64,000 nt of DNA from an uncultured Dehalococcoidia bacterium (GCA_951812625.1 CATOSP010000001.1:136065-200064), one strand, 5' to 3'; positions 48,184-52,637 are shown, counted from the first letter of the stretch. The notes: generated by a model from the sequence alone, not told the origin. A program made the numbers and translations.

Positions 48184-48816
48184 ATGCCAATGGACCGGTT
48201 TATCAAACCCCTTGCAATCCTTCTGGCGATAGGAATGTTCTCGGCGATTCTTGCCGCATGTGCCGGCCCCCAGGGAGCACAGGGCGCTCAGGGTATACCC
48301 GGACTTCCCGGAAATCCGGGCTTGTCGGGCGAGCCTGGCAAGCCGGGAAAACCCGGTCTCCCGGGCCTTCAGGGCGTGCCCGGCAACCCCGGACCACAGG
48401 GAGAACAGGGACCTCAGGGCCCACAGGGTGAACCAGGCCCCCAGGGCGAGCCGGGCGAGGTCGGCCCTCCGGGTTCGTCCCATCCCACATCGATCACCCT
48501 GATACCTCCTCAAGCCGAGGAAGGCCGCCCCACCATCAAGGTTGTGGGGGCAGGCTGGCAACCCGACGAGGCTGTGACCGTGGAAGTCTACGGCCCCGAC
48601 GGATACCGCGTCTTCATCGGCGGTGCAGTCGCCGATGAGTCCCGTGCCTTCGAGGTCGACATACGGCCCCGAAGCAACGTAAGGGAAGGCGGCCCCTTCA
48701 AGCCCGGCCTCTACAGCGTCGTAGTCCTGGGCAGTAAGGAGGGCGGAGCAAGTGCGCCCCTCCTGATAACCGAACCGCCTCCTGAGCCAGAGGCCACGCC
48801 CGAAGCCTCCTCCTAG
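48184..48816 (+). CDS. Collagen-like triple-helix-repeat lipoprotein
   Basis: Signal peptide with lipobox ILAAC, then 23 uninterrupted G-X-Y triplets (48265-48471), then a C-terminal domain of about 110 aa. Confidence 0.85.
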
Positions 48817-48883
48817 CAGGAACGCCCAGCCACACAGCAGGGCATCGCCGCTGACGCCACGGCAGCGAGTCCCACCGACCAGA

Positions 48884-48926
48884 ATGCAAACCGGCGCAGT
48901 GTTCGACACTGCGCCGGTTTGCATTT
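48884..48926 (+). terminator. Perfect 18-bp hairpin downstream of the collagen-like gene
   Basis: ATGCAAACCGGCGCAGTG-ttcga-CACTGCGCCGGTTTGCAT followed by TT. Confidence 0.6.
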
Positions 48927-48975
48927 CACGACCGTCAATCCCCCCAACCGTCGAGAGCCACTGACTCAAAGAGGG

Positions 48976-49008
48976 TTGACGCTATGTAATGTGTAGTGTA
49001 AATTACAC
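48976..49008 (+). promoter_or_regulatory. Promoter with overlapping palindromic operator upstream of the RHH gene
   Basis: TTGACG (48976-48981), 17 nt, TAAATT (48999-49004). The palindrome GTGTAA-A-TTACAC (48996-49008) covers the -10 box. Confidence 0.55.
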
Positions 49009-49047
49009 GTAAGTCAGTAATAATGATACAGAATAGGAGGTAATCCA

Positions 49048-49428
49048 ATGCCGGAGAACGAACCGAGAGCAAGGGAACGGGTTATACGCGGGGTGGAAGA
49101 AGTTGGCAGAGGCGTCCGCGAAGTCGGCAGCGGTGTGCGGGATGCCACCGTGGCCGGTGTTGAGACCGCAAAGGAGGCCGTCAAGAACAGACTGCCCCAC
49201 GACCGGCAGACCCGGGACAACGTCGTGATGGTGCGTGTTGACAAAGACACTCTGGACCGCCTGGACGACTTGGTGGAAGCCGGTGTGGCCGGCAGTCGGT
49301 CTGAAGCGGCCAACTACCTCGTGGTTGAGGGTGTCAAGGCCCGCCAGTCCTTCTTCGACACCATTGCCGCGAAGGTGGAAGAGATCAGGAAGGCTAGGGA
49401 AGAACTGCGAAGGCTGCGGGATGAATAA
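49048..49428 (+). CDS. Ribbon-helix-helix (CopG/Arc-like) protein with a repetitive N-terminus
   Basis: ATG 7 nt after AGGAGG. The C-terminal VVMVRVDKDTLDRLDDLVEAGVAGSRSEAANYLVVEG is a typical RHH. The N-terminus contains GVEEVGRGVREVGSGVRD repeats. Confidence 0.7.
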   Translation: MPENEPRARERVIRGVEEVGRGVREVGSGVRDATVAGVETAKEAVKNRLPHDRQTRDNVVMVRVDKDTLDRLDDLVEAGVAGSRSEAANYLVVEGVKARQSFFDTIAAKVEEIRKAREELRRLRDE

Positions 49429-49488
49429 ACCTTCATCAATCGGACCCATTCATGCCAACGAATCCGGCAACCCGGCAGAGGGGGAATT

Positions 49489-50676
49489 ATGTGGTACGTA
49501 ACTTCCGGCCAGCCACTGGCCTGCGACGGTTGTGGTGGTTCAATCCCGCCTGGTGACCCCTGCATATCAGACCTGCCGCAGCAACTGCCCAAGAACGTCG
49601 CGCGGAGAGATTACCGCCACTTCCATTTGCAGTCCCCGCAGTGCAGTCCGGCAGACGCCACACCCTCCTGGTCTTGTTATCAGGAGTTCTCCTCCCAACT
49701 GGTCTCCGAGCGGGCGAAGCATGAAATGGTCTGCCTGGGCTGCGGACATGCGGTCCTCGAAGGCGAAGAATATCTTCAGGACTTCCTCTCTGTCCGGGAC
49801 AATGGCAAGAGTGCCGACAATCTGGAGAATGAATCTGGGCCCGCCGCCCTTCTCGCCACCCTGTCCAGGGGCCAGCCGGTAAATCCGGCCTCTTTCTCTA
49901 ACCTCAGCCGCCAGTCTGCGGCGAAGTTTAGACGCGCTGGCCTGGGCAATGGCCGTGGCATCCGTACCGAGGCTGAGGCTGGAACATTTTTCAGGACCAG
50001 CATACCGGGACCGGTGCGCAACCTGGGGGAAGGATCGGTCAGGCAGTTCACCAAGGGTAAAGAGGCAAGCCACATTCGTTCGGTGGCCAACGCACCCGGC
50101 CAGGCCCGAGACCCGGCAAACATAGTGTGGGAATCTGCCAGGGCCAACGGCAATCGCGGCTCTCGGAATATGACCCGCATGGAAGTGGTCGGCGCCAGGA
50201 CGGTCAATGCGGCTGACGCCGTTAAAATAACCGGGAGGGCCGCCGGGAAGAACGCGGGCAGGGGTACTGCATTCGCCGTACTGTTCGAGCTTCCGGTAAC
50301 CCTGGCCGAGAACGGCATCTCCGTTTATCGGGGCAAGAAATCCAGGCAGGAAGCCGCAAAAGATACCGGGAAAGACGTGGCGGCAGCAGGAGTGGCTGGG
50401 GGTGCCATGGCGGCAGGAACAACTGTGGCCGTAGCCCTGGGTGCCGGACCAGCCCTTGCAGCCGCCGCTCCCGTACTGGTCCCGGTCGGCATTGGCATCT
50501 TCGCATTATCGGCCAGTACGCGAATCTGGCGGGCCTGGAAGGACGGGCTAAAGCGCCTGGAGCTTAATTTCCACGCCGACTGCCCTGCGTGCGAGCCCAA
50601 CTGCAATTGTTACGAAGACTTCGCCGATTGGGTCAGTTCCTACTGCGCGGAAGAAACCCGCACGGAGAAAGGGTAG
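49489..50676 (+). CDS. Zn-ribbon / HNH-like nuclease / glycine-zipper membrane protein (395 aa), unknown family
   Basis: ATG after GAGGGGG. CDGCGG and CLGCGH Cys pairs. SHIRSVANAPGQARDPANIVWESARANGNRGSRNM (50065-50172) resembles the DHIxP...N..L....NRGK HNH pattern. A Gly/Ala-rich TM segment spans 50374-50523. The C-terminus has a CPACEPNCNC cluster. Confidence 0.6.
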   Translation: MWYVTSGQPLACDGCGGSIPPGDPCISDLPQQLPKNVARRDYRHFHLQSPQCSPADATPSWSCYQEFSSQLVSERAKHEMVCLGCGHAVLEGEEYLQDFLSVRDNGKSADNLENESGPAALLATLSRGQPVNPASFSNLSRQSAAKFRRAGLGNGRGIRTEAEAGTFFRTSIPGPVRNLGEGSVRQFTKGKEASHIRSVANAPGQARDPANIVWESARANGNRGSRNMTRMEVVGARTVNAADAVKITGRAAGKNAGRGTAFAVLFELPVTLAENGISVYRGKKSRQEAAKDTGKDVAAAGVAGGAMAAGTTVAVALGAGPALAAAAPVLVPVGIGIFALSASTRIWRAWKDGLKRLELNFHADCPACEPNCNCYEDFADWVSSYCAEETRTEKG

Positions 50677-50715
50677 TCTGCTCAACGAGGTTGAGCCGCA
50701 CCAGGCACATCAAAA

Positions 50716-50740
50716 GCCCCTCCCGCTAATCGGGAGGGGC
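50716..50740. terminator. Bidirectional terminator hairpin between convergent genes
   Basis: AAAA-GCCCCTCCCG-ctaat-CGGGAGGGGC-TTCGCTTT. Confidence 0.7.
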
Positions 50741-50798
50741 TTCGCTTTGCTCCAGTTTGACCGTAATCTACAACGGTCAGGTCAGGTATCGGTGGGGA

Positions 50799-52637
50799 CT
50801 ACCTGTCCAGCCACACGTACTCCAGCCTGCGGGCTTGGCTGTACTGGCCGGAGAAACGCTCGTCCGGCACGTTCTGGACATGGTTCCAGTGGGTCGGGTA
50901 GCGTACCGGCCAGAACAGGGGAACGTACGGGACGTCATCGTAGAAGATCTCCATGGCCTGATCAGCTAGGACCTTGAGTTTCTCCACGTCTGAGTTAACC
51001 CGCATCTCCTTCAGCACATTGTCCAGCGCTTCATTGCAGTAGCCGATGATGTTATTGACCGGAGGCTCCCCGCAGAACGTCGGGTAGTCCAGCCAGTCGT
51101 ATGGGTGGTCGACGCGGGCGCTGCCGGATGCCCCGGATTCAAACAGCCAGTCGGCCGAATTATGCTTCTCGACGTATGCGCCGCTTTCCTGGACATCCAG
51201 CGACATCCGAATGTTGAGGGTATCACGGAGCATAAACTCAGCCACAGGGCATAAGTGGTCTCGATAGTCGGCGATGTCGCGGCACAGGGCTTTGACCTCG
51301 AACCCATCGGGATACCCGGCGTCAACCATTAGCTGCTTTGCCTGGGCTATCTCGGCGTCCTTGGCGGGGCCGGGCATGGCGAAACCAGCCCTGACCGCCA
51401 ACTCATCCCGCTTAACCTTGCCGTAGACCGTAGACGCCAGGTAGTCCCCCATCGTGCAGTTGGGGAGTGCTTCGCACAACTGGTCCCGGTTCACCGCCAG
51501 GTTGATTGCCTGGCGGACCCGCTTGTCCTGCCACGGGCCTTCCTCTCGCCAGTTCCACTTGATTCCCCGGAGCACGGGATGCAGGCCGGGGAAATAGGTT
51601 ATCTGACCGGGATGTCGGTCTACCATCGGATCAATGTTCTCGGGGAACATGCCGTGGCTGCTGCCCATCATAATGTAGTCCAGCCGCTGGGCTTCGAACG
51701 CTGCCAGCTTCGCCGCAACGTCCCGGATGATGAACAGGTCAATACCATCCAGGTAGGGCAGGTCTTCTTTGAAGTAGTCCTCGTGCCGGCGAAACTCGAT
51801 CTTCTCACCCGGCTGGTGGCTCTCCATGTAATACGGACCGGTGCCAATGGGGGTATCCAGGGACTCCATCTCGTCGTAGTCGGCCTCGGTGTACATCGAG
51901 TACTGTTGCAGCCCCAGCCTGGCCAGCAGCAGACCGTCCGGCTCCTTCAGGTTGATGACAACCGTGGTTTCGTCCGGAGCTTCAATGCTCTCCACGGTGC
52001 TCTCTCCAGCAACACTGAGGAAGTCGTGAGGAGGCCTGTTTTCCGTCTCCATGGTCATAAGCTCTAGGGTGAACTTGGCGTCGGCCGAAGTCCACGGGTT
52101 GCCATTGTGGTTCACGACGTTGTCGTGAAGCTGGAAGGTGTACTGTGTGGATGCCTCGTTCACCTCCCAGGTATGGGCGATGTCCGGCCCCACCCTCACG
52201 AAATCCGGGTGTTGCAGGGACAGCAACTGGTTGAAGATCGGAGCATTCGACGTGGTCTCATCGATTGCGCTCCGAACGTCCAGCCTGAAGTGGAGCGGGC
52301 TCCGGCGGTGTACCTGGTTGAGTATCCCGCCCCGCTTGATGGTCCCCTCGGGCGCCGGCATCGCCGTCGGTTCGGCCTTGCTCTCCGCTACCGCGCCTAT
52401 AGCGAATCCCTCAATCTTGGTGGCTGTTGGCACCATCACCTGCTCCGGGGCCTGTGGCTTCTCCGGGTCCGCGCCTTCCATCGCCGCCTGTGGCTTCTCC
52501 GGGTCCGCAGGCTGCATCTGCTCGGCAGTCTGCACCTCCGGCTCCACTGCGGCAGTTCCGCCGCAAGCCACACCCAGCGCCGTTATCATCAATAGGGCTG
52601 CGCCCAACGCTGCAAGTCTGAGAAAACTACGGGTCAT
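50799..52637 (-). CDS. ABC transporter substrate-binding lipoprotein, family 5 (peptide/nickel/opine type)
   Basis: Signal peptide with lipobox (LGVAC), a repeated PEKPQA linker, and a body of about 500 aa typical of DppA/OppA-like SBPs. Confidence 0.85.
   Translation of the reverse strand: MTRSFLRLAALGAALLMITALGVACGGTAAVEPEVQTAEQMQPADPEKPQAAMEGADPEKPQAPEQVMVPTATKIEGFAIGAVAESKAEPTAMPAPEGTIKRGGILNQVHRRSPLHFRLDVRSAIDETTSNAPIFNQLLSLQHPDFVRVGPDIAHTWEVNEASTQYTFQLHDNVVNHNGNPWTSADAKFTLELMTMETENRPPHDFLSVAGESTVESIEAPDETTVVINLKEPDGLLLARLGLQQYSMYTEADYDEMESLDTPIGTGPYYMESHQPGEKIEFRRHEDYFKEDLPYLDGIDLFIIRDVAAKLAAFEAQRLDYIMMGSSHGMFPENIDPMVDRHPGQITYFPGLHPVLRGIKWNWREEGPWQDKRVRQAINLAVNRDQLCEALPNCTMGDYLASTVYGKVKRDELAVRAGFAMPGPAKDAEIAQAKQLMVDAGYPDGFEVKALCRDIADYRDHLCPVAEFMLRDTLNIRMSLDVQESGAYVEKHNSADWLFESGASGSARVDHPYDWLDYPTFCGEPPVNNIIGYCNEALDNVLKEMRVNSDVEKLKVLADQAMEIFYDDVPYVPLFWPVRYPTHWNHVQNVPDERFSGQYSQARRLEYVWLDR

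What the first reader, a model, noticed from the sequence alone, without database searches (positions are those of the whole stretch)
48961..50740. Self-contained RHH plus Zn-ribbon/HNH-like/glycine-zipper membrane protein module (candidate toxin-antitoxin or abortive-infection system)
The unit has its own promoter (TTGACG-17-TAAATT). The -10 box is covered by the palindrome GTGTAA-A-TTACAC, as expected for RHH autorepression. It ends in a bidirectional terminator.

Gene 1 is a 126-aa RHH protein with a repetitive GV(E/R)EVG N-terminus. Gene 2 (395 aa) combines:
- two CxxC-type Zn-ribbon-like pairs;
- a segment SHIRSVANAPGQARDPANIVWESARANGNRGSRNM that parallels the HNH pattern DHIxP...N.vL....NRGK, as in Cas9/McrA-type HNH;
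- a Gly/Ala-rich double-TM 'glycine zipper' segment;
- a C-terminal CPACEPNCNC cluster.

I do not know of a described membrane-anchored HNH-like effector under RHH control. It is my best candidate for an undescribed system in this window.
Basis: partly seen in the sequence, partly recalled or inferred. Interest (0 to 1): 0.7.

Follow-up and report, generated by a model that had tools for sequence, protein, structure and literature searches.

The report
RHH-controlled membrane-tethered HNH-like protein
A small repressor gene is followed by a gene for an unannotated, membrane-anchored protein with a divergent HNH nuclease fold; relatives of the repressor head known anti-phage genes in related genomes, so this is a credible but untested candidate defence module.

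Summary
Two co-oriented ORFs (126 aa and 395 aa) lie between two strong hairpins, behind one sigma-70-like promoter whose -10 box sits inside GTGTAA-A-TTACAC.

Gene 2 has no Pfam, NCBIfam, PADLOC or PDB sequence match. It belongs to a family of at least 462 clusters at 50% identity, found in Dehalococcoidia, Acidimicrobiia, Rhodothermales and cyanobacterial plasmids. The shared core carries an almost invariant SH-N-WE-N-RG motif with canonical HNH spacing. A confident AlphaFold model shows a beta-beta-alpha unit. Foldseek hits in two libraries are nearly all HNH nucleases, but individually weak (best E 0.013). A Gly/Ala-rich hydrophobic hairpin flanked by basic residues follows the core.

The toxin-antitoxin reading is not supported as stated. 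The RHH partner occurs in only one Dehalococcoidia lineage of the gene 2 family. The same RHH family, with the same TGTAAT-rich promoter, precedes other cargo in 80 surveyed loci: gene 2-like proteins (17), GIY-YIG nucleases (11), prokaryotic viperin, Uma2, a PLD-NTPase and PADLOC candidate defence genes.

My best reading is an RHH regulator heading interchangeable defence cargo, here a membrane-tethered HNH nuclease that may work like SNIPE. Function is inferred, not shown.

The parts
48882..48926 (+). Upstream insulating hairpin; likely terminator of the preceding collagen-like lipoprotein gene
   Evidence: 21-bp perfect stem, -38.1 kcal/mol, z -8.1
48976..49004 (+). Sigma-70-like promoter, TTGACG-17-TAAATT
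   Evidence: Only promoter-like site in 48700-51000. TTGAC(A/G) is conserved at the same position in 14 related loci.
48985..49021 (.). Operator-like cluster: TGTAAT (48985-90), palindrome GTGTAAATTACAC (48996-49008), inverted ATTAC-AC-GTAAG (49002-13), GTAAT (49017-21)
   Evidence: Read directly. GTAAT/ATTAC is enriched in 13 of 14 related promoters.
49048..49428 (+). Gene 1: 126-aa RHH-type regulator. N-terminal 11-mer amphipathic repeats, RHH at about residues 58-100, C-terminal helix.
   Evidence: Pfam RHH_1 E=0.035; NCBIfam AbmR C-terminus E=3e-5. 286 homologues. Invariant VVMVRVD...SRSEAA core.
49489..50676 (+). Gene 2: 395-aa membrane-tethered HNH-like protein
   Evidence: ORF. At least 90 close homologues and 462 family clusters. 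No curated family match.
49489..49788 (+). N-terminal Cys/His-rich double Zn-ribbon-like region (residues 1-100). Lineage-specific; replaced by amphipathic repeats in other phyla.
   Evidence: Conserved C12, C15, H44, H46, C63, C82, C85. Weak Zn-ribbon Pfam hits in some members. Beta-hairpins in the model.
49894..50274 (+). Conserved core domain (residues 136-262): four short helices, then a beta-beta-alpha unit, then a long helix
   Evidence: AlphaFold pLDDT 86.7, pTM 0.79. Profile search gives 462 clusters.
50059..50160 (+). Beta-beta-alpha (His-Me finger) motif: S194-H195, N211, W214-E215, N220, R223-G224
   Evidence: Conserved in 218-232 of 234 domain copies, W214 in 189. Foldseek top hits are HNH nucleases.
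50257..50343 (+). Juxtamembrane amphipathic helix with invariant E267, P269, E274, then a basic stretch
   Evidence: Alignment invariants. Mean hydropathy is about 1.2 (hand calculation), too low for a typical transmembrane helix.
50374..50517 (+). Gly/Ala-rich hydrophobic hairpin (residues 296-343) with a GAGP turn, flanked by Lys/Arg on both sides
   Evidence: Only region with hydropathy above 1.4. G318, G320, P328, G334 are conserved. A C-terminal hydrophobic segment is present in most family members.
50560..50646 (+). C-terminal His/Cys cluster (H362, C365, C368, C374). Co-occurs with the N-terminal Zn-ribbon region.
   Evidence: Invariant in Zn-ribbon-type homologues. Retained with the Zn ribbon in HNH-less variants in L112 and L120.
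50714..50742 (.). Downstream GC-rich hairpin shared with the convergent ABC-transporter binding-protein gene (50799..52637, -)
   Evidence: 12-bp stem; -27.8 kcal/mol (+) and -34.1 (-); z -4.2 and -5.6

Best explanation
The locus is a two-gene operon.

**Gene 1.** It encodes a ribbon-helix-helix DNA-binding protein. This protein most likely represses its own promoter by binding the TGTAAT/ATTACA repeats that overlap the -35/-10 region. The RHH family is widespread in sponge-associated Dehalococcoidia. It sits at the head of interchangeable cargo genes, many of them known or candidate anti-phage genes. It therefore acts as a cargo regulator rather than a cognate antitoxin.

**Gene 2.** The cargo here belongs to an unannotated, multi-phylum protein family. 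Its conserved core is a divergent HNH (His-Me finger) domain with predicted catalytic H195, structural N211, metal ligands N220 and possibly E215, and R223. A conserved acidic juxtamembrane helix and a Gly/Ala-rich hydrophobic hairpin follow. Basic residues on both flanks of the hairpin predict that the N-terminal Zn-ribbon region, the HNH domain and the C-terminal Cys cluster all face the cytoplasm at the membrane surface.

**Most likely function.** A nuclease held at the membrane, away from the chromosome, that attacks incoming foreign DNA. This is the logic shown experimentally for SNIPE.

**Shown here:** gene structure, family membership, motif conservation, predicted fold, conserved promoter motifs, and the association of the RHH family with defence genes.

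**Inferred:** repression by the RHH, membrane topology, nuclease activity, and the defence role.
For: **Operon anatomy.** One promoter, an unstructured 60-nt spacer, and flanking hairpins.

**Operator motif.** Enriched and conserved in 13 of 14 related promoters, including paralogues with other cargo.

**HNH evidence**
- Near-invariant SH / N / WE / N(H) / RG in 234 domain copies.
- Spacing matches the canonical HNH motif as I recall it from SpCas9 (H840, N854, N863).
- Core model pLDDT 86.7 with beta56-60, beta77-81 and helix 82-88.
- PDB Foldseek top hits: teneurin Tox-GHH, Cas9 HNH, VcaM4I, PtuB, Cap5, I-PpoI.
- BFVD top hit: HNH endonuclease of phage Aeh1, E 0.013, probability 0.98. Local beta-beta-alpha matches have rmsd 0.8-1.9 A.
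- The Anabaena plasmid homologue 'SHIKPHSKGGSNNPNNIKWE' hits Pfam HNH and HNH_5 at E 0.08.
- PGAP names the Kovacikia homologue 'HNH endonuclease'.

**Membrane hairpin.**

**Cargo of the RHH family in 80 loci**
- Gene 2-like: 17
- GIY-YIG: 11
- pVip: PADLOC E 3.8e-87
- Uma2 / PDC-S03
- PLD + P-loop protein
- EcsC / PDC-S29
- PDC-M09A: E 1e-30

**Defence neighbours of gene 2 homologues in other phyla.** PARIS AriAB (E 2e-203), SoFic (E 2e-35), an REase-like protein, MNT.
Against: - No individual structural or sequence match to HNH reaches conventional significance. Best values are Foldseek E 0.013 and Pfam E 0.08. The profile search against PDB sequences found nothing.
- The window itself is not a defence island. 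Its neighbours are a collagen-like lipoprotein, a homocysteine methyltransferase and an ABC transporter.
- Many family members sit alone among housekeeping genes, for example P0091.
- No homologue was found in 50,697 phage records, and none of the systems in PADLOC matches gene 2.
- About 12 of 233 family members have an N-terminal signal-peptide-like or lipoprotein-like segment. That would place the domain outside the cytoplasm, which fits a cytoplasmic DNA-cleaving role poorly.
- Proteins with 6-9 tandem copies, most lacking the catalytic His, suggest the fold can also serve as a binding module.
- Some RHH family members precede plain housekeeping genes (acetyl-CoA-synthetase-like, racemase). 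The RHH is therefore not exclusively defence-linked.
Confidence: 0.45

Rival explanations
1. Classical type II toxin-antitoxin pair. The RHH protein is an antitoxin that represses the operon and also neutralises the HNH-hairpin protein (the toxin) by direct binding. Loss of the labile antitoxin frees the toxin, which then damages DNA or the membrane.
For: - The order is RHH first and effector second, with a tight 60-nt spacing and an autoregulation-like palindrome.
- Other gene 2 homologues are next to or fused with antitoxin-type modules: a HigA-like HTH overlapping the 3' end in L013, PaREP1/HEPN upstream in L011, and a C-terminal DUF7387 fusion in P0050 and P0055.
- In L034 the RHH carries a Gly-rich hydrophobic N-terminus like the gene 2 hairpin, which hints at physical contact.
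- Hyperpromiscuous antitoxin domains are known (PMC10440598).
Against: - Most family members have no adjacent partner. This includes all Acidimicrobiia, Rhodothermales and cyanobacterial members and several Dehalococcoidia members.
- The RHH protein is conserved over its full length (52-60% identity, 92-100% coverage) whichever unrelated cargo follows. That cargo includes an enzyme like pVip and plain flanking genes. It therefore has no evident toxin-specific binding region.
- The RHH fold lies in the C-terminal half. In typical RHH antitoxins it is N-terminal and followed by a toxin-binding tail (my own knowledge of the family).
Confidence: 0.15
2. Abortive-infection effector that kills through the membrane. 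The Gly/Ala hairpin and the acidic juxtamembrane helix oligomerise into a pore, as in SLATT or other 2TM effectors. The HNH-like domain senses or binds nucleic acid rather than acting as the main weapon.
For: - A conserved Gly-zipper hairpin with invariant G318, G320, G334, and invariant E267/E274 in the preceding helix.
- Weak SLATT_1 (E 0.12) and DUF4231 (E 0.16) hits on the C-terminal part of the Anabaena homologue.
- HNH-less variants keep the Zn ribbon, the transmembrane segment and the Cys cluster (L112, L120).
- Tandem arrays contain mostly His-less copies.
Against: - The SLATT-type hits are far below threshold and seen in one sequence only. No Gly-zipper or SLATT family appeared among the 25 most frequently matched Pfam families listed for the 39 or the 127 members scanned.
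- The catalytic-type residues are the most conserved positions of the whole family, which points to an active enzyme.
Confidence: 0.15
3. Not a conflict system. The protein is a membrane-associated nucleic-acid-processing or tethering protein with a housekeeping or stress role, for example DNA uptake or turnover at the membrane, or surface binding like lipid-droplet or PHA-granule proteins. A local RHH regulator controls it.
For: - The context in the window and in several loci is housekeeping.
- Gene 1 and the N-termini of homologues from other phyla carry 11-mer amphipathic repeats. There are weak Apolipoprotein and Oleosin hits and a PHA_gran_rgn neighbour in L012.
- Some members have signal peptides.
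Against: - The family is patchy and spread across phyla, and it occurs on conjugative cyanobacterial plasmids next to PARIS, restriction-related and phosphorothioation-associated genes.
- The RHH family is linked to pVip, GIY-YIG, Uma2 and PDC candidates.
- The lipid-related hits are weak, and I attribute them to Ala/Gly-rich composition rather than homology.
Confidence: 0.2
4. The HNH resemblance is coincidental. The core is an unrelated small alpha/beta domain with no catalytic role.
For: No match reaches standard significance in Pfam, NCBIfam, PDB sequence or Foldseek searches.
Against: - The motif spacing is canonical and position 220 alternates N/H.
- A beta-beta-alpha unit is predicted with pLDDT around 90.
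- Two independent structure libraries both return HNH nucleases almost exclusively.
- The cyanobacterial 'SHIKPHSKGGS' homologue is a bridging sequence.
Confidence: 0.05

Closest known systems
SNIPE (PD-lambda-1), membrane-bound nuclease that cleaves phage DNA during injection (Saxton et al., Nature 2026, PMC13190303)
   Same: A nuclease domain tethered to the inner membrane and facing the cytoplasm. [quoted passage not shown] In SNIPE, membrane sequestration prevents self-cleavage. Gene 2 likewise combines a conserved nuclease-like core, a variable N-terminus and a membrane anchor.
   Different: SNIPE has an N-terminal single transmembrane segment, DUF4041 and a C-terminal GIY-YIG domain. Gene 2 has an HNH-like fold, no DUF4041 and a C-terminal hydrophobic hairpin. 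There is no sequence relationship, and PADLOC gives no hit. The function of gene 2 is untested.
HNH / His-Me finger nucleases (Pfam HNH PF01844, HNH_5; Cas9 HNH domain; Septu PtuB; CBASS Cap5; polymorphic-toxin Tox-GHH and Tox-SHH types)
   Same: Beta-beta-alpha topology. His at the end of strand 1, Asn in strand 2, and Asn or His followed by a basic residue in the helix, with canonical spacing. The structural neighbours are these proteins.
   Different: No significant profile match. Ser (not Asp or His) precedes the catalytic His. Gene 2 lacks the structural CxxC Zn site of many HNH domains. It has an invariant Trp-Glu after strand 2 and a four-helix N-terminal subdomain specific to this family. 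It is fused to a membrane hairpin.
[quoted passage not shown]
   Same: The gene 1 family sits at the head of many unrelated defence-type genes and has a conserved promoter-operator architecture. This is the genomic signature used to define those regulators.
   Different: Gene 1 is a single small RHH protein with amphipathic N-terminal repeats. It has no WYL, protease or kinase partner. It is confined (as far as sampled) to Dehalococcoidia/Chloroflexota and Poribacteria. Its inducing signal is unknown.
Type II toxin-antitoxin systems with RHH antitoxins (CcdA, ParD, RelB, CopG-like)
   Same: A small RHH gene first and the effector second, with a palindromic operator over the promoter.
   Different: The pairing is not conserved across the effector family. 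The RHH is conserved whatever the cargo. The RHH fold lies in the C-terminal half of the protein.

Membership tests
HNH / His-Me finger superfamily (gene 2 core) | Beta-beta-alpha-metal topology | tested here: met
   AlphaFold core model has pLDDT 86.7, with strands 56-60 and 77-81 and helix 82-88. Local superpositions on phage HNH endonucleases give rmsd 0.8-1.9 A over 38-42 residues. This is a predicted model only.
HNH / His-Me finger superfamily (gene 2 core) | Conserved His at the end of strand 1, Asn in strand 2, and Asn/His metal ligand in the helix, with canonical spacing | tested here: met
   H195 in 224 of 234 copies, N211 in 228 of 234, N220 in 218 of 234 plus 4 His. Spacing is 16 / 9 / 3.
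HNH / His-Me finger superfamily (gene 2 core) | Significant match to a curated HNH sequence profile or to a solved HNH structure | tested here: not met
   No HNH-family Pfam, NCBIfam or PDB-sequence hit for the window protein. Best values: Pfam HNH E 0.08 in a plasmid homologue, Foldseek E 0.36 in PDB and 0.013 in BFVD.
HNH / His-Me finger superfamily (gene 2 core) | Metal-dependent nuclease activity | not testable with these tools
   Needs biochemistry.
Type II toxin-antitoxin system | Conserved bicistronic pairing of toxin and cognate antitoxin across the toxin family | tested here: not met
   The RHH is adjacent in 10 of 13 Dehalococcoidia loci found with gene 2, in L034, and in 17 of 80 RHH loci. 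It is absent in the Acidimicrobiia, Rhodothermales and cyanobacterial loci and in L011-L013.
Type II toxin-antitoxin system | Antitoxin specific for its toxin | tested here: not met
   The same full-length RHH family precedes GIY-YIG, pVip, Uma2, PLD-NTPase, EcsC and housekeeping genes.
Type II toxin-antitoxin system | Toxicity of the effector and rescue by the partner | not testable with these tools
   Needs expression experiments.
Ribbon-helix-helix (CopG/Arc/MetJ) DNA-binding proteins (gene 1) | Beta-strand, helix, helix motif matching the RHH profile | tested here: inconclusive
   Pfam RHH_1 E 0.035 (14.5 bits against a cut-off of 20.5). NCBIfam AbmR C-terminal region E 3e-5. The invariant VVMVRVD-x-L-x(3)-D-x-L-x(7)-SRSEAA fits the pattern.
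SNIPE | DUF4041 plus GIY-YIG nuclease domains | tested here: not met
   No PADLOC or Pfam hit. The fold is HNH-like, not GIY-YIG.
SNIPE | Membrane anchoring of a cytoplasm-facing nuclease | tested here: inconclusive
   Hydropathy and the positive-inside flanks predict an N-in/C-in hairpin. No dedicated topology predictor or experiment was available. A minority of homologues have signal-peptide-like N-termini.
SLATT / 2TM pore-forming effectors | Match to SLATT family profiles | tested here: inconclusive
   Only SLATT_1 E 0.12 and DUF4231 E 0.16, in one homologue.
Defence-operon regulators (functional class) | Encoded upstream of diverse immune genes with a conserved promoter architecture | tested here: met
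   80-locus survey and PADLOC/Pfam annotation of the cargo. The promoter motif is shared by paralogues.

The most novel reading that the evidence does not exclude
Gene 2 would found a new class of anti-phage effector. It would be an HNH nuclease held at the cytoplasmic face of the membrane by a glycine-zipper hairpin, cutting foreign DNA as it enters. That would be a second, independently evolved solution to the self/non-self strategy of SNIPE. Gene 1 would define a new RHH-type regulator family marking a defence-cargo hot spot next to metH in sponge-symbiont Dehalococcoidia. That family could then be used as bait to discover further defence genes. Candidates include the small RG-rich GIY-YIG proteins and the HNH-less Zn-ribbon/transmembrane proteins.
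Probability: 0.3. Interest if true: 0.75.

Novelty: new variant of a known kind. Interest (0 to 1): 0.6.

Why it matters
If the reading is right, three things follow.

1. A protein family of several hundred clusters in at least four phyla, currently 'hypothetical protein', gains a fold assignment (HNH) and a testable role.
2. Membrane sequestration of a nuclease as a way to tell self from non-self, shown so far for SNIPE, would be seen to have evolved more than once with a different nuclease fold and anchor.
3. The gene 1 RHH family gives a simple genomic marker for variable defence cargo in uncultured sponge-associated Dehalococcoidia. These organisms are not well covered by defence catalogues built from cultured Proteobacteria and Firmicutes.

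If the reading is wrong, the family is still an unannotated, conserved membrane protein with a nuclease-like domain that deserves a Pfam entry.

Tried and rejected
**Searches that found nothing**
- Pfam, NCBIfam and PADLOC scans of gene 2 gave no family.
- phmmer of gene 2, the core profile, and a cyanobacterial homologue against PDB sequences gave nothing relevant.
- Foldseek with the full-length model (pLDDT 65) was uninformative. Only the cropped core model gave a coherent hit list.
- Pfam scans of 39 and 127 family members looking for a bridging HNH hit gave no significant family. One Tox-GHH hit reached only E 0.032.
- tblastn against phage genomes found no match.
- Rfam found nothing in the region.
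- Literature searches for a membrane-anchored HNH or glycine-zipper HNH protein found no description of this family.
- Cluster look-up of ten remote representatives returned no source names or taxonomy.

**Technical limits**
- The search for related loci with the broad alignment A1 failed because no stretch was conserved enough.

**Readings considered and dropped**
- A lipid-droplet or PHA-granule role. It rested on weak Oleosin, Apolipoprotein and phasin hits and one PHA_gran_rgn neighbour, which I attribute to Ala/Gly-rich composition and a single locus.
- An anti-sigma-like membrane sequestration of the RHH by gene 2. Nothing supports it except the hydrophobic N-terminus of the L034 RHH.
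Full report
**1. What is in the sequence**

The window carries two co-oriented ORFs: 49048..49428 (126 aa) and 49489..50676 (395 aa).

The only sigma-70-like site between 48700 and 51000 is TTGACG-17-TAAATT at 48976..49004. Shuffled sequence gives 0.5 such sites, so the site alone proves little. The palindrome GTGTAA-A-TTACAC lies at 48996..49008 and covers the -10 hexamer.

Two hairpins insulate the unit. The upstream one has a 21-bp perfect stem at 48882..48926 (-38.1 kcal/mol, z -8.1). The downstream one has a 12-bp GC stem at 50714..50742 (-27.8 kcal/mol on the + strand, -34.1 on the - strand). The 60-nt spacer between the genes is unstructured. Rfam finds nothing here.

**2. Gene 2 belongs to a large unannotated family**

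Pfam, NCBIfam, PADLOC and PDB sequence searches give nothing for gene 2. A homology search returns at least 90 unnamed relatives.

Full-length relatives that share the Cys/His-rich N-terminus are all from Dehalococcoidia MAGs. More distant relatives keep only residues about 136-350. They come from Acidimicrobiia (Spongiisociaceae), from Rhodothermales and other Bacteroidota, and from large cyanobacterial plasmids of Anabaena, Nostoc, Calothrix and Kovacikia. Judging by their isolate labels, many appear to come from sponge metagenomes.

A profile of the core finds 462 clusters at 50% identity with E<=1e-3, and 219 with E<=1e-10.

The N-terminus varies. It is a Zn-ribbon-like region in the window lineage and 11-mer amphipathic repeats in Acidimicrobiia and Rhodothermales. 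A few members have a signal-peptide-like or lipoprotein-like start. A C-terminal hydrophobic segment is present in most members.

**3. Is the core HNH-like?**

Across 234 domain copies, the best-conserved positions are:

| Position | Copies conserved (of 234) |
|---|---|
| S194 | 222 |
| H195 | 224 |
| N211 | 228 |
| W214 | 189 |
| E215 | 232 |
| N220 | 218, plus 4 His |
| R223 | 230 |
| G224 | 223 |
| M228 | 218 |

The spacing H-16-N-9-N-3-R is that of canonical HNH motifs. As I recall it, SpCas9 has H840, N854 and N863. The N/H alternation at position 220 is the classical HNN/HNH variation.

An AlphaFold model of residues 136-262 is confident (pLDDT 86.7, pTM 0.79). It shows four short helices, strands ending at H195 and starting at N211, a helix carrying N220 and R223, and a long helix.

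Foldseek gives no single significant hit, but both hit lists are coherent:
- In PDB the top hits are teneurin (whose C-terminus, from my own knowledge, is a Tox-GHH HNH-type domain), Cas9 HNH domains, VcaM4I, Septu/retron PtuB, CBASS Cap5 and I-PpoI. The best E is 0.36.
- In BFVD the top hit is the HNH endonuclease of phage Aeh1 (E 0.013, probability 0.98). Nearly all named hits are HNH endonucleases. Some superpose on the beta-beta-alpha unit with rmsd 0.8-1.9 A.

The Anabaena plasmid homologue reads DKHASHIKPHSKGGSNNPNNIKWENAKDNIARG. This is close to the classical DHI-P-SKGGS signature, and it hits Pfam HNH and HNH_5 at E 0.08. PGAP names the Kovacikia homologue 'HNH endonuclease'.

I conclude that the core is a divergent His-Me finger domain that probably keeps catalytic residues. 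I put this at about 85%. It rests on a predicted structure and on sub-threshold matches.

**4. The membrane part**

The only strongly hydrophobic stretch is residues about 296-343. It consists of two Gly/Ala-rich segments of about 21 residues joined by a conserved GAGP turn. Both flanks are basic: RGKKSRQEAAKDTGKD before and TRIWRAWKDGLKR after. By the positive-inside rule this predicts a hairpin with both ends in the cytoplasm.

That topology fits the Cys/His clusters at both termini. The two clusters also occur together in HNH-less variants in L112 and L120. An amphipathic helix with invariant E267, P269 and E274 precedes the hairpin.

This topology is an inference. About 12 of 233 members have an N-terminal signal-like segment and may be oriented differently.

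**5. Is the RHH a cognate partner?**

A gene 1 homologue lies directly upstream of gene 2 in 10 of the 13 Dehalococcoidia loci found with gene 2 (L002-L013 plus L001), and in L034. It is absent from:
- L011, which has a PaREP1/HEPN-like gene upstream;
- L012, which has a PHA_gran_rgn gene downstream;
- L013, which has a HigA-like HTH gene downstream;
- all Acidimicrobiia, Rhodothermales and cyanobacterial loci.

Gene 1 has 286 homologues of its own. I fetched 80 genomic loci containing one and examined the next gene on the same strand:

| Next gene on the same strand | Loci (of 80) | Support |
|---|---|---|
| Gene 2-like | 17 | tblastn and core HMM |
| Small RG-rich GIY-YIG proteins | 11 | Pfam GIY-YIG E 1.9e-4 and 9.5e-7 |
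| Prokaryotic viperin | 2, plus 2 earlier loci | PADLOC pVip E 3.8e-87 |
| Uma2 | 3 | PADLOC PDC-S03 |
| PLD + P-loop protein, 674 aa | 2 | Pfam |
| EcsC | 1 | PADLOC PDC-S29, E 4e-14 |
| PDC-M09A homologue | 1 | E 1e-30 |
| PDC-M09B-like | 1 | E 2e-6 |
| Flanking housekeeping genes | several | sequence clustering; Pfam Asp_Glu_race on record at the equivalent position in other loci |

The RHH proteins are 52-60% identical over 92-100% of their length whatever the cargo. Their promoters share the TTGACA-N4-5-GTAAT architecture with further GTAAT/ATTAC copies. The motif is enriched in 13 of 14 promoters tested.

This pattern fits a transcriptional regulator heading interchangeable cargo. It resembles the pattern used to recognise CapW/BrxR, CapP-CapH and CapK-CapS (PMC13373217). 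It fits a toxin-specific antitoxin less well. Hyperpromiscuous antitoxins do exist (PMC10440598), so the toxin-antitoxin reading is not excluded.

**6. Defence context of gene 2 relatives elsewhere**

- In Kovacikia plasmid pB the homologue lies about 2 kb from a PARIS AriAB fusion (E 2e-203).
- In L034 a SoFic homologue follows immediately (E 2e-35).
- Other loci carry an REase-like GHKL protein, an MNT-type nucleotidyltransferase protein (PADLOC PDC-S09; I read a fused HEPN domain from the sequence, untested), a HipA-like kinase, a large STAND-like NTPase, and transposases.
- The Anabaena and Nostoc copies are on conjugative plasmids near phosphorothioation-associated and HsdR-N genes.

These observations are qualitative. 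Several family members, including the window copy, sit among housekeeping genes.

**7. Mechanism proposed**

The RHH binds the TGTAAT repeats and limits transcription of the operon (inferred). The gene 2 protein inserts into the membrane by its hairpin (inferred from hydropathy). Its HNH domain, held at the membrane and away from the nucleoid, cleaves DNA that enters through the envelope. This is the logic shown for SNIPE, where removing the membrane anchor makes the nuclease toxic (PMC13190303).

The variable N-terminus would then act as an adaptor, as proposed for SNIPE. I put about 45% on this overall reading. The rivals are:
- a true toxin-antitoxin pair (15%);
- a pore-forming 2TM effector with the HNH domain as sensor (15%);
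- a non-conflict membrane and nucleic-acid function (20%);
- a coincidental HNH resemblance (5%).

**8. Unexplained observations**

- Two proteins, P0091 and P0092, carry 9 and 6 tandem copies of the domain. Most copies lack the catalytic His, and both proteins end in the same hairpin.
- The L034 RHH has a Gly-rich hydrophobic N-terminus.
- Some members have signal peptides.
- The role of invariant E267 and E274 is unknown.

**9. Verdict**

The HNH-like, membrane and RHH-operator parts of the interpretation are supported at the level of prediction. The toxin-antitoxin framing is not supported.

The family is absent from the curated libraries I could search, and I found no paper describing it. 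I rate it a new variant of a known kind: a membrane-tethered nuclease effector under a defence-cargo regulator. Interest is moderate to high because function is untested.

Noticed in passing
window 48184..48816 (+): The gene just upstream encodes a 210-aa lipoprotein-like protein (signal sequence ending in ...LAAC). It has about 75 residues of collagen-like G-x-y repeats ([19 protein letters not shown]...). The very strong hairpin at 48882-48926 follows it.
   Followed up: no
P0091 (1291 aa; L036 6001..9876) and P0092 (908 aa): These proteins carry 9 and 6 tandem copies of the HNH-like core. In most copies the catalytic His is replaced by L, R or Y, and one copy looks canonical ('ELSHIVPFS...NAVWE...LNRARG'). 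Both end in the same Gly-rich hairpin. P0091 sits among housekeeping genes (efp, ruvABC, pyrG) next to a Uma2 gene.
   Followed up: partly
L112 4224..4787 and L120 4411..4944: Short relatives of gene 2 (177-187 aa) keep the N-terminal Zn-ribbon-like CxxC, one hydrophobic segment and the C-terminal 'YFHADCxxC...CY' cluster, but lack the HNH core. In L112 a full-length gene 2 homologue follows.
   Followed up: partly
L034 4983..5477: A gene 1 homologue (164 aa) has a Gly/Ala-rich hydrophobic N-terminal segment resembling the gene 2 hairpin. This suggests a membrane-associated RHH. A SoFic homologue follows the gene 2 homologue in this locus.
   Followed up: partly
L001 4695..5357 (-), L042 4191..4823 (-), L043 9114..9746 (-), L044 1503..2135 (-): A conserved 210-220-aa protein is transcribed divergently from the gene 1 homologue in several loci. 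Its N-terminus looks RHH-like ('MRIGINVPxxLLKRVKxLxPDxNISQVCRxAL'). It has no PADLOC hit (Pfam '-' in the precomputed gene tables) and is absent from the window.
   Followed up: no
L042 5435..6587, L044, L077, L104: Prokaryotic viperin (pVip) genes in Dehalococcoidia lie directly behind the gene 1-type RHH. In L042 and L044 a 69-aa Gly-zipper membrane protein follows.
   Followed up: partly
L058-L083 (for example L059 4449..4943): A family of 129-170-aa proteins has a disordered Gly/Ser/Arg-rich N-terminus and a GIY-YIG domain ('KYIGTTNNPxRRAxEH'). It is the second most common cargo behind the RHH and has no PADLOC match.
   Followed up: partly
P0234-P0237 (gene 1 and its closest homologues): The precomputed Pfam column lists PF27540 for gene 1. 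That accession is not in the Pfam copy available here, so the gene 1 family may already have a very recent Pfam entry whose name I could not read.
   Followed up: no
P0050 and P0055 (L037, L038 5001..6401): Some gene 2 homologues carry a C-terminal DUF7387 (PF24113) extension whose sequence looks HicB-like to me. Separately, a HicB_lk_antitox gene lies about 2.6 kb upstream in L037.
   Followed up: partly
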